DNA of 64,000 nucleotides from Octopus vulgaris (Eukaryota). The position numbers and the translations under genes are program-made. The number at the start of each line of letters is the position of its first letter. Within the stretch, counting starts at the first letter, position 1. Below the pieces are notes generated by a model that saw only the letters and a program-made list of their open reading frames with translations, did no database searches and was not told where the DNA came from. The stretch covers positions 46,872,001 through 46,936,000 of the forward strand of contig OX597815.1 of the NCBI GenBank assembly GCA_951406725.2, written 5' to 3'. This document shows positions 57,747-58,380 of the stretch, piece after piece.

Positions 57747-58380
57747 TATTAATAATATCAAAAGGTAATCTGAAATATTAGAAATTTCATTACCAAAATT
57801 TAGTCAATAGACTATATATTATTCATATAAATAGTGTACATTTAAACACAGAAGAGGTATCCATGATAGGACTACCTGCAAGCTAGAAAGGATAGTTAAA
57901 TTCCAAACCACTATTAGGGATAAAATTTCCAATAGAATGAAAAATAAAAACATTTACCATCTAACTTCTGGTAAAGAAATTTCTAATATTTCAGATTACC
58001 CTTTGATATTATTAATTATTGATAAATTTTTTCTTGGATAATTTTCGAAATGATAAAGCCGGCATATTTATTTACTGCAGACAGGGAGCTGAGCTTGCGC
58101 GGTAGATTTGAAAAATTAGAAAGTATAAGCACGGGGTGTATACTGGATTGCATCTTGTATATATATTTAATCTAAAGTGTACCTGCTGAAGATTCGCCTA
58201 GCAAATTATTTTATTTGCTAAAAAAGTCTGAAACCATTGGTTCAGGAGTTACATGGTAGATATTTTATTTTTCATTCCATTCGAAATTTTATACCTAATA
58301 GTGGTTTGGAATTTAATTGTCCCCTTTAGCGTGCAGGTAGTCCTATGATGGATACCTCTTTAGTGTTTAAATGTACACTG
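57747..58380. mobile_element. Permuted inverted-arm element in (TA)n with a hammerhead
   Basis: 57747-57803 is the reverse complement of 57961-58015; 57833-57970 is the reverse complement of 58243-58379. Confidence 0.85.
58182..58246 (+). ncRNA. Type I hammerhead motif
   Basis: cctg CTGAAGA ..tagcaaat/atttgcta.. GAAA cc att gg TT cagg; base of stem II imperfect. Confidence 0.62.

What the first reader, a model, noticed from the sequence alone, without database searches (positions are those of the whole stretch)
57747..58380. Circularly permuted inverted arms whose junction falls at the predicted ribozyme cleavage site
Seen: the right arm reads A-HHR-B on plus and the left arm reads B-spacer-A on minus, implying a tandem or circular monomer of about 450 nt. 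The left arm begins CAGAAGTTAGATGGTA at 57970, matching CAGGAGTTACATGGTA immediately after the GUU site (58242). The junction 10-mer also resembles the sequence upstream of A (microhomology). Inference: cDNA ran to a self-cleaved RNA 5' end and folded back, leaving a genomic footprint of in vivo ribozyme activity.
Basis: partly seen in the sequence, partly recalled or inferred. Interest (0 to 1): 0.75.

Follow-up and report, generated by a model that had tools for sequence, protein, structure and literature searches.

The report
Ribozyme-cut footprint in retrozyme insertions
This is one aged mirror-image copy of a common non-coding jumping repeat with a predicted self-cutting RNA motif; most copies read straight through the predicted cut, but a minority stop just after it, which likely records in DNA that some of the RNA had cut itself before it was copied.

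Summary
The anatomy is real: two head-to-head arms of a ~470-nt tandem unit with a type I hammerhead sit between (TA)n tracts, and the left arm starts at the predicted cut. Fold-back is refuted: the right arm holds 228 nt that the left arm lacks. The junction is also the unit's only CCAG, matching the right arm's CTGG start. In 218 other arms there is no sharp peak: 2 of 139 end at +1, and 9 end in -3..+3 against 6.8-8.6 expected. But 5' ends are in excess just downstream of the cut: 24 against 8.4 in +1..+10 (scan-corrected p 0.002), in inverted and non-inverted arms, weakly repeated in diverged subfamilies. So about 10-15% of templates were likely ribozyme-cut and the rest uncut or circular; this copy is about a coin flip. 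Outer ends follow a short/long rule (56 of 58 pairs), pointing to two separately primed Penelope-type cDNAs; the scan noted that rule before on other DNA of this genome. Known kind (animal retrozyme); cleavage, circles and the mobilising enzyme are untested.

The parts
57635..57747 (.). (TA)n-rich target microsatellite, left flank; boundary with the arm is ambiguous by several nt, no TSD can be read
   Evidence: 3' ends of family arms in TA-type repeats
57748..57971 (-). Left arm: unit H17/+1 to +243 (long 'T' end); B 57970-57836, spacer 57835-57796, A 57795-57748; private 16-nt deletion near 57795/57796
57968..57971 (.). Head-to-head junction: 4-nt microhomology (CTGG on plus = unit +193..+196; CCAG on minus = H17,+1..+3, the only CCAG in the unit)
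57968..58380 (+). Right arm: unit +193..+471 then +1..~+145 (fades into TA by ~+160; short 'S' end); reads through its own hammerhead without a break
58171..58254 (+). Type I hammerhead motif, decayed in this copy: stem I CCTG 58182-58185 / CAGG 58243-58246, core CTGAAGA 58186-58192, 4 nt of stem II 5' strand missing after 58192, GAAA 58230-58233, short stem III, NUH GTT 58240-58242 (family GTC); predicted cut 58242/58243
58364..58380 (+). Motif just inside the short end, shared by close and ~70%-identical subfamilies (3089 exact genome matches); candidate recognition element
58381..58419 (.). (TA)n target microsatellite, right flank
58437..58449 (-). 13-nt piece identical to unit ~+159..+171 (also at 57802 inside the left arm); unexplained, possibly a templated scrap or chance

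Best explanation
This is an aged head-to-head insertion of a non-coding ~470-nt tandem repeat with a predicted type I hammerhead (an animal retrozyme), likely made by a Penelope-type enzyme that primed two separate cDNAs from the two ends of a nicked (TA)n tract and had them joined at a 4-nt microhomology; most templates were likely uncut or circular, and a minority likely ribozyme-cut. Shown: tandem unit, hammerhead core with covarying stem II, (TA)n targets, head-to-head pairs in 95 of 153 loci, outer ends at two fixed places (~+150 and ~+245 from the cut) with one of each per pair, microhomology excess at junctions, read-through of the cut in 131 of 161 arms, and an excess of 5' ends at +1..+30. 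Inferred: the enzyme (Penelope-like RT/GIY-YIG in trans), two independent priming events, end-joining, and that the +1..+30 excess comes from cDNA running off a self-cleaved 5' end and losing a few nt at joining (about 10-15% of arms). For this copy: the right arm came from an RNA intact across one hammerhead; the left arm ended either at a cut RNA end (~45%) or simply where the only CCAG met the partner's CTGG (~55%).
For: Tandem spacing 453-489 nt. Hammerhead: CUGANGA and GAAA invariant in 20 of 20 aligned copies, stem II 4 of 4 pairs with two-sided changes, 12 of 25 pairs overall, 0 of 500 shuffles as high. Head-to-head in 95 of 153 loci; of 58 pairs with both ends classed 56 short+long, 2 long+long, 0 short+short; 39 of 97 pairs had an unclassed end (p 6e-15); the window conforms. 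Junction overlap >=4 nt in 21 of 97 pairs vs 2.6% by chance. 5'-end excess: +1..+10 24 vs 8.4, +1..+30 54 vs 25.8; non-inverted arms 11 vs 2.7, inverted 13 vs 5.9; unchanged with other alignment scores; 20 vs 7.7 with one arm per locus; scan p 0.002 and 0.0005; independent, mostly diverged arms 6 vs 2.4 (p 0.045); 5 of the 9 arms that end beyond -440 end within -6..+24 of the next hammerhead upstream. The more stable stem II hairpin (-45..-24) shows 4.4-7.5 ends per 1000 nt vs 16.1 at +1..+10. Inverted 5'-truncated copies with a tail at one end are standard PLE anatomy (PMC8557442, PMC3846280 passages); a PLE protein cuts and extends both strands from two internal start sites (PMC11167929); R2 templates with a ribozyme 5' end and no target homology give junctions mostly truncated within 50 nt (PMC11331408 section 9).
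Against: No exact pile-up at +1 (2 of 139). The +1..+10 window was chosen after seeing the data (scan-corrected, but against a constant-hazard null). Long-end arms alone show no significant excess (5 vs 3.5). Other hotspots of similar rate exist at -189..-180 and -239..-230 (15.5 per 1000, few arms at risk, AT-rich). The replicate rests on noisy alignments and two hand-set ends; without them the count is 4. No autonomous partner was found: none of the 29 other Neptune-type RT loci and none of 30 GIY-YIG loci carries the unit at the end of its ORF. In PMC11167929 hammerhead cleavage was not needed for insertion and no reads began at the cut. The window's own hammerhead is decayed.
Confidence: 0.7

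Rival explanations
1. One reading: the cDNA reached a self-cleaved 5' end and folded back on itself to make the second arm.
For: Left arm starts at H17/+1; its end falls in the zone of excess 5' ends; 42 of 97 other pairs have one arm contained in the other, so fold-back is geometrically possible there; self-priming was proposed for rotifer Penelope palindromes (PMC3846280 passage).
Against: The right arm contains 228 nt (+244..+471) absent from the left arm and runs 439 nt; 55 of 97 pairs are not nested; the short/long rule (56 of 58) needs two primings; in near-symmetric pairs just below the cut the arm reaching further 5' is usually the short-ended one, the wrong way round for a fold-back copy.
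Confidence: 0.04
2. No cleavage footprint at all: templates are uncut tandem or circular RNA, and the +1..+30 excess comes from reverse-transcriptase stalling at the 3' strand of hammerhead stem I, from AT-rich microhomologies at +15..+33, or from a transcription start; this copy's junction is a microhomology coincidence.
For: 131 of 161 arms read through; no peak at +1; the unit's only CCAG is at the cut and matches the partner's start; +1..+12 is predicted paired in stem I; recurrent joins at +8/+21..25 and +16/+29 use TA and AAA overlaps; AT-rich hotspots elsewhere; PMC11167929 found unprocessed RNA the main substrate.
Against: The excess is strongest in non-inverted arms (11 vs 2.7), where arm-to-arm microhomology plays no part; +1..+10 is not AT-rich and AT content does not predict the rate (rho 0.21, p 0.33); stronger hairpins upstream show no such excess; the best 10-nt window starts at +1 and the rate falls from 16.1 to 6.8 across the cut; the distal stem I is only 66% paired.
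Confidence: 0.4
3. L1-style twin priming on one linear tandem RNA whose 5' end is the cut: the right arm was primed at the short site of unit n+1, the left arm internally at the long site of unit n, and ran to the cleaved end.
For: For this copy the arms overlap by only 51 nt (+193..+243) and tile one RNA from +1 of one unit to +160 of the next; 12 of 56 short+long pairs have a long-end arm confined to >=+140, and short and long 5' ends are negatively correlated (rho -0.32, p 0.016).
Against: Many pairs overlap over their whole length (both arms cover +30..+150), which needs two RNAs, a circle or displacement; the correlation is partly forced by anchor sampling.
Confidence: 0.25
4. The arms are only the pseudo-LTRs of a 5'-truncated autonomous Penelope-like element, not a separate non-autonomous unit.
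For: Same anatomy as PLE inverted pLTRs; thousands of PLE RT and GIY-YIG candidates in this genome.
Against: Arms longer than one unit continue into another unit, up to about 840 nt; no PLE ORF adjoins an arm's 5' end among 290 loci scanned for long frames and RT/EN motifs (the one PLE RT found lies beyond a 3' end and belongs to a family without this unit).
Confidence: 0.1

Closest known systems
Animal non-LTR retrozymes (Cervera and de la Pena 2020, PMC7229834, passages; Li, Clavereau, Pollet, bioRxiv 10.64898/2026.07.22.740005, part 1 of 5 and passages)
   Same: Short non-coding tandem unit with one type I hammerhead, low GC, hundreds to thousands of dispersed copies, short stem III.
   Different: Unit ~470 nt (slightly above their 150-450 nt); here mostly partial tandems of 0.2-1.8 units in head-to-head pairs; the passages read do not describe inverted insertions or 5'-end mapping; circular RNA not shown here.
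Penelope-like element insertions (Craig et al. 2021, PMC8557442, passages; rotifer Penelopes, PMC3846280, passages)
   Same: 5'-truncated partial tandems, adjacent inverted copy, tail at one end only, (TA)n bias, microhomology at 5' junctions, hammerhead in the repeat.
   Different: No ORF; tail (short-to-long end distance) ~85-95 nt rather than 30-40 nt; no cognate autonomous element found.
Anolis Poseidon PAc in vitro (Frangieh et al. 2024, PMC11167929, parts 1-2 of 4)
   Same: Two internal RT start sites downstream of the hammerhead, both DNA strands cut and extended, AT-rich target; most templates uncut.
   Different: They saw no reads starting at the cut and no need for cleavage; here a minority of genomic 5' ends crowd just downstream of the predicted cut.
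R2 retrotransposon ribozyme-defined 5' ends (PMC11331408, passages and section 9)
   Same: A ribozyme sets the template 5' end, and end-joined junctions are slightly truncated, mostly within 50 nt.
   Different: HDV-like ribozyme, site-specific rDNA target, single arm; there nearly all full-length templates are cut, here a minority at most.

Membership tests
Animal non-LTR retrozyme | Short tandem repeat unit | tested here: met
   Natural spacings 453-489 nt; arms up to ~840 nt
Animal non-LTR retrozyme | Type I hammerhead in each unit | tested here: met
   Invariant core, stems I-III 91-98% paired, covariation in stem II; no Rfam match; window copy decayed
Animal non-LTR retrozyme | Non-coding, no LTR, dispersed multi-copy | tested here: met
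   257, 153, 119+77, 193 exact matches to close-family anchors and 3089 to the shared motif; no RT/EN frame joined to an arm
Animal non-LTR retrozyme | [quoted passage not shown] | tested here: inconclusive
   Not met at this locus (one decayed hammerhead); one arm of L014 holds two hammerhead-pattern matches
Animal non-LTR retrozyme | Self-cleavage and circular RNA | not testable with these tools
   Only assembled contigs of guessed RNA runs were available; they cannot show ends or circles
Penelope-like mobilisation | Inverted 5'-truncated copy and one-sided tail | tested here: met
   95 of 153 loci head-to-head; 56 of 58 short+long
Penelope-like mobilisation | AT-rich/microsatellite target | tested here: met
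   Flanks printed; window flanks
Autonomous Penelope-like element | RT plus GIY-YIG ORF joined to the repeat | tested here: not met
Penelope-like mobilisation | Cognate autonomous element sharing the cis sequence | tested here: inconclusive
   Not found in 30 RT loci of one family and 30 GIY-YIG loci with 1500-nt flanks, out of thousands of candidates

The most novel reading that the evidence does not exclude
The family's insertions hold a population-level fossil record of hammerhead cleavage in the germ line: about 10-15% of cDNAs were copied from ribozyme-cut linear RNA and stop at +1..+30, the rest from uncut or circular RNA, so the share of cut templates in any Penelope-type or retrozyme family can be read from genome sequence alone; this copy is one such cut-end cDNA joined to a second, separately primed cDNA.
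Probability: 0.45. Interest if true: 0.62.

Novelty: new member of a known kind. Interest (0 to 1): 0.42.

Why it matters
What hammerheads do in Penelope-like elements is open (PMC8557442 calls it unclear; PMC11167929 found cleavage dispensable in vitro), and retrozymes are assumed to insert from circles (PMC7229834). A skewed excess of genomic 5' ends beginning at the predicted cut would be evidence that cleavage happens in the germ line and that cut linear RNA is one of the templates, and it gives a cheap test that can be run on every hammerhead-bearing family. The single locus proves nothing alone, and the element type and its two-start rule are already known or noted elsewhere.

Tried and rejected
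Rfam scans: no hammerhead family hit. First monomer build was faulty (559 nt) and was discarded; replace it. The 30 best BLAST loci are biased to long arms and were not used for the end test unless also listed by an anchor search. Sharp H17 peak: rejected; a first look at 98 arms suggested one (9 in -3..+3 including this copy) but the second sample did not repeat it. Fold-back: rejected by geometry. The 10-mer microhomology: depends on a deletion private to this copy. The 13-nt direct repeat at 57802/58437 as a TSD: rejected, since it is part of the unit and the sequence beyond 58449 does not continue the unit. General symmetry of paired 5' ends: 18 of 56 within 45 nt vs 13.5 by permutation, p 0.06, not established. 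Autonomous partner: a young Neptune-type PLE next to L207 and 30 GIY-YIG loci do not carry the unit at their ORF ends (a few short 70% matches elsewhere in the flanks). Expression: no RNA holder listed on record; contigs of four guessed-RNA runs cover the unit but cannot show ends, strand or circles. One natural full unit folds only modestly better than shuffles (z -1.85). Literature searches listed no paper mapping retrozyme or PLE 5' ends against the hammerhead cut; only listings and the passages named were seen, no supplements, and subscription papers are not in the library.

Full report
Setting. The window lies at G000:C2:46872001-46936000 in a 2.8-Gb genome of 227 contigs. Positions are given in unit coordinates, +1 being the first base after the predicted hammerhead cut and 0 being H17.

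Observation. The region is two head-to-head arms between (TA)n tracts. The left arm (minus, 57971-57748) aligns to 0/+1..+243 and the right arm (plus, from 57968) to +193..+471, +1..~+160 of a 471-nt in-script majority unit. Natural tandem spacings in other loci are 453-489 nt, with one of 421, so the permuted order is simply the tandem order. The 10-mer resemblance depends on that deletion. Against the family, the arms share 4 letters at the junction, CTGG/CCAG, and that CCAG (H17..+3) is the only one in the unit; the left arm's real end is thus anywhere from 0 to +4.

Ribozyme. Rfam finds nothing. In 20 aligned natural copies, ten from diverged subfamilies, CUGANGA and GAAA are invariant; stems I, II and III are 97.5, 90.8 and 97.5% paired; all 4 stem II pairs change on both sides; 0 of 500 shuffles reach the score (relatedness inflates that control). 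The triplet is GUC in 82 of 98 pattern matches. The window copy has GUU and lacks 4 nt of stem II, so it is probably decayed. Cleavage itself is predicted from established hammerhead knowledge, not shown.

Family anatomy. A 17-nt motif near the short end has 3089 exact matches; close-family anchors have 257, 153, 119+77 and 193. Of 153 non-redundant anchored loci, 95 hold head-to-head arms (97 pairs). Outer ends cluster at +140..+172 (short) and +224..+260 (long). Of 58 pairs with both ends classed, 56 are short+long, 2 long+long and none short+short; 39 pairs had an unclassed end (p 6e-15). The window has long left, short right. Junction overlaps of 4 nt or more occur in 21 of 97 pairs against 2.6% by chance (BLAST overlaps, some inflated by hairpins).

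Fold-back. A fold-back copy must lie inside the strand it copies. The right arm holds +244..+471 (228 nt), absent from the left arm, and reads through its own hammerhead. Across the family 42 of 97 pairs are nested and 55 are not. Two separately primed cDNAs joined at their 3' ends explain the geometry and the short/long rule; a PLE protein cuts and extends both strands from two internal start sites in vitro (PMC11167929), and an inverted truncated copy with a one-sided tail is standard PLE anatomy (PMC8557442; PMC3846280).

I sampled arms by exact anchors downstream of the cut, listed in genome order: the first 100 of 257, the first 100 of 153, the first 30 of 119 and 30 of 77, merged duplicates and dropped both window arms, leaving 218. 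Rates are ends per base at risk. Exactly +1: 2 of 139. In -3..+3: 9 against 6.8-8.6 (p 0.26-0.50). Of 161 arms reaching +10, 131 read past -5; of 30 arms anchored at +4 (first 30 of 193, partly overlapping the pooled set), 28 read past -3. There is no sharp peak. Ends are not uniform, however: 16.1 per 1000 at +1..+10, 6.8 at -9..0, 10.8 at +1..+30, against 5.1-6.2 at +31..+91 and 3.7-5.8 at 0..-150. A scan of -150..+91 against simulated constant rates picks +1..+10 (p 0.002), -4..+25 (p 0.0005) and +4..+10 (p 0.006). The excess holds in non-inverted arms (11 vs 2.7) and inverted arms (13 vs 5.9), with other alignment scores (24 vs 8.4) and with one arm per locus (20 vs 7.7); short-end arms show it (9 vs 3.5), long-end arms alone do not (5 vs 3.5). 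In 90 further, mostly diverged arms (99 found; 4 already pooled and 5 duplicate or biased dropped; 4 ends set by hand from the second-best reference because the best one was misled by TA flank or by the partner arm) +1..+10 holds 6 against 2.4 (p 0.045; 4 without the two hand-set ends in that window), +1..+30 13 against 7.9 (p 0.08) and -3..+3 2 against 1.7. Five of the 9 arms that end beyond -440 end within -6..+24 of the next hammerhead upstream. The excess is about 16 of 161 arms (+1..+10) or 28 of 191 (+1..+30), 10-15%.

Reading. An RNA with a fixed 5' end at +1, copied to the end and trimmed at joining, predicts a skew that starts at the cut and lies downstream; R2 templates with a ribozyme end and no target homology give junctions mostly truncated within 50 nt (PMC11331408 section 9). 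The rival is stalling at the 3' strand of stem I (+1..+12), AT microhomology or a transcription start. Against it: stronger hairpins upstream show 4.4-7.5 per 1000, AT content does not predict rate (rho 0.21, p 0.33), and the excess is strongest where there is no partner arm. For it: hotspots of similar rate at -189..-180 and -239..-230 on few arms, recurrent TA/AAA joins at +8/+21..25 and +16/+29, and the in vitro result that cleavage is dispensable. I put cleavage as the cause of the excess near 0.5-0.6. For this copy the excess share is 35% in -3..+3 and 65% in +1..+10, and the unique microhomology is a sufficient cause, hence about 0.45.

Enzyme. No RT or GIY-YIG frame joins an arm's 5' end among 290 loci. 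A young Neptune-type PLE (RT, CxxxCxxC linker and GIY-YIG read from its translation; clade name from my own knowledge) lies beyond the 3' end of L207 but none of its 29 other loci carries the unit within 1500 nt of the match; nor do 30 GIY-YIG loci at their ORF ends. Mobilisation by a PLE is inferred from anatomy only. RNA data were limited to contigs and decide nothing.

Verdict. A new member of a known kind (animal retrozyme with Penelope-type insertions). Five literature searches listed no such end map; supplements and subscription papers were not seen. Interest 0.42.

Noticed in passing
L351-L380, e.g. L372:955-3387 (+): Young, high-copy Penelope-like family with 811-aa open frames, 96-97% identical copies, several in head-to-head pairs; unrelated in sequence to the hammerhead unit within the flanks held.
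   Followed up: partly
unit -189..-180 and -239..-230: Two further clusters of 5' ends (8 and 6 arms) at AT-rich places; the second coincides with the long priming end. Could be microhomology, re-cutting or a transcription start.
   Followed up: no
L154, L155, L179, L182, L194, L197, L248, L271, L289: Recurrent near-symmetric junctions just below the cut (about +8/+21..25 and +16/+29) at unrelated loci, with the short-end arm reaching further 5'.
   Followed up: partly
L031-L116: Several diverged subfamilies (~70-80% identity) keep the hammerhead core and the motif near the short end, with compensatory changes in stem II.
   Followed up: partly
window 58437-58449: 13-nt antisense scrap of the unit just outside the right (TA)n tract.
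   Followed up: partly
window 55411-55452 and 56875-56916: Two 76%-identical copies of a short repeat ending in a tRNA-like box, probably SINE fragments (the SINE label is recalled, not tested).
   Followed up: no
L387, L392 and many rows: A second young GIY-YIG family with recurring 781-aa open frames.
   Followed up: no
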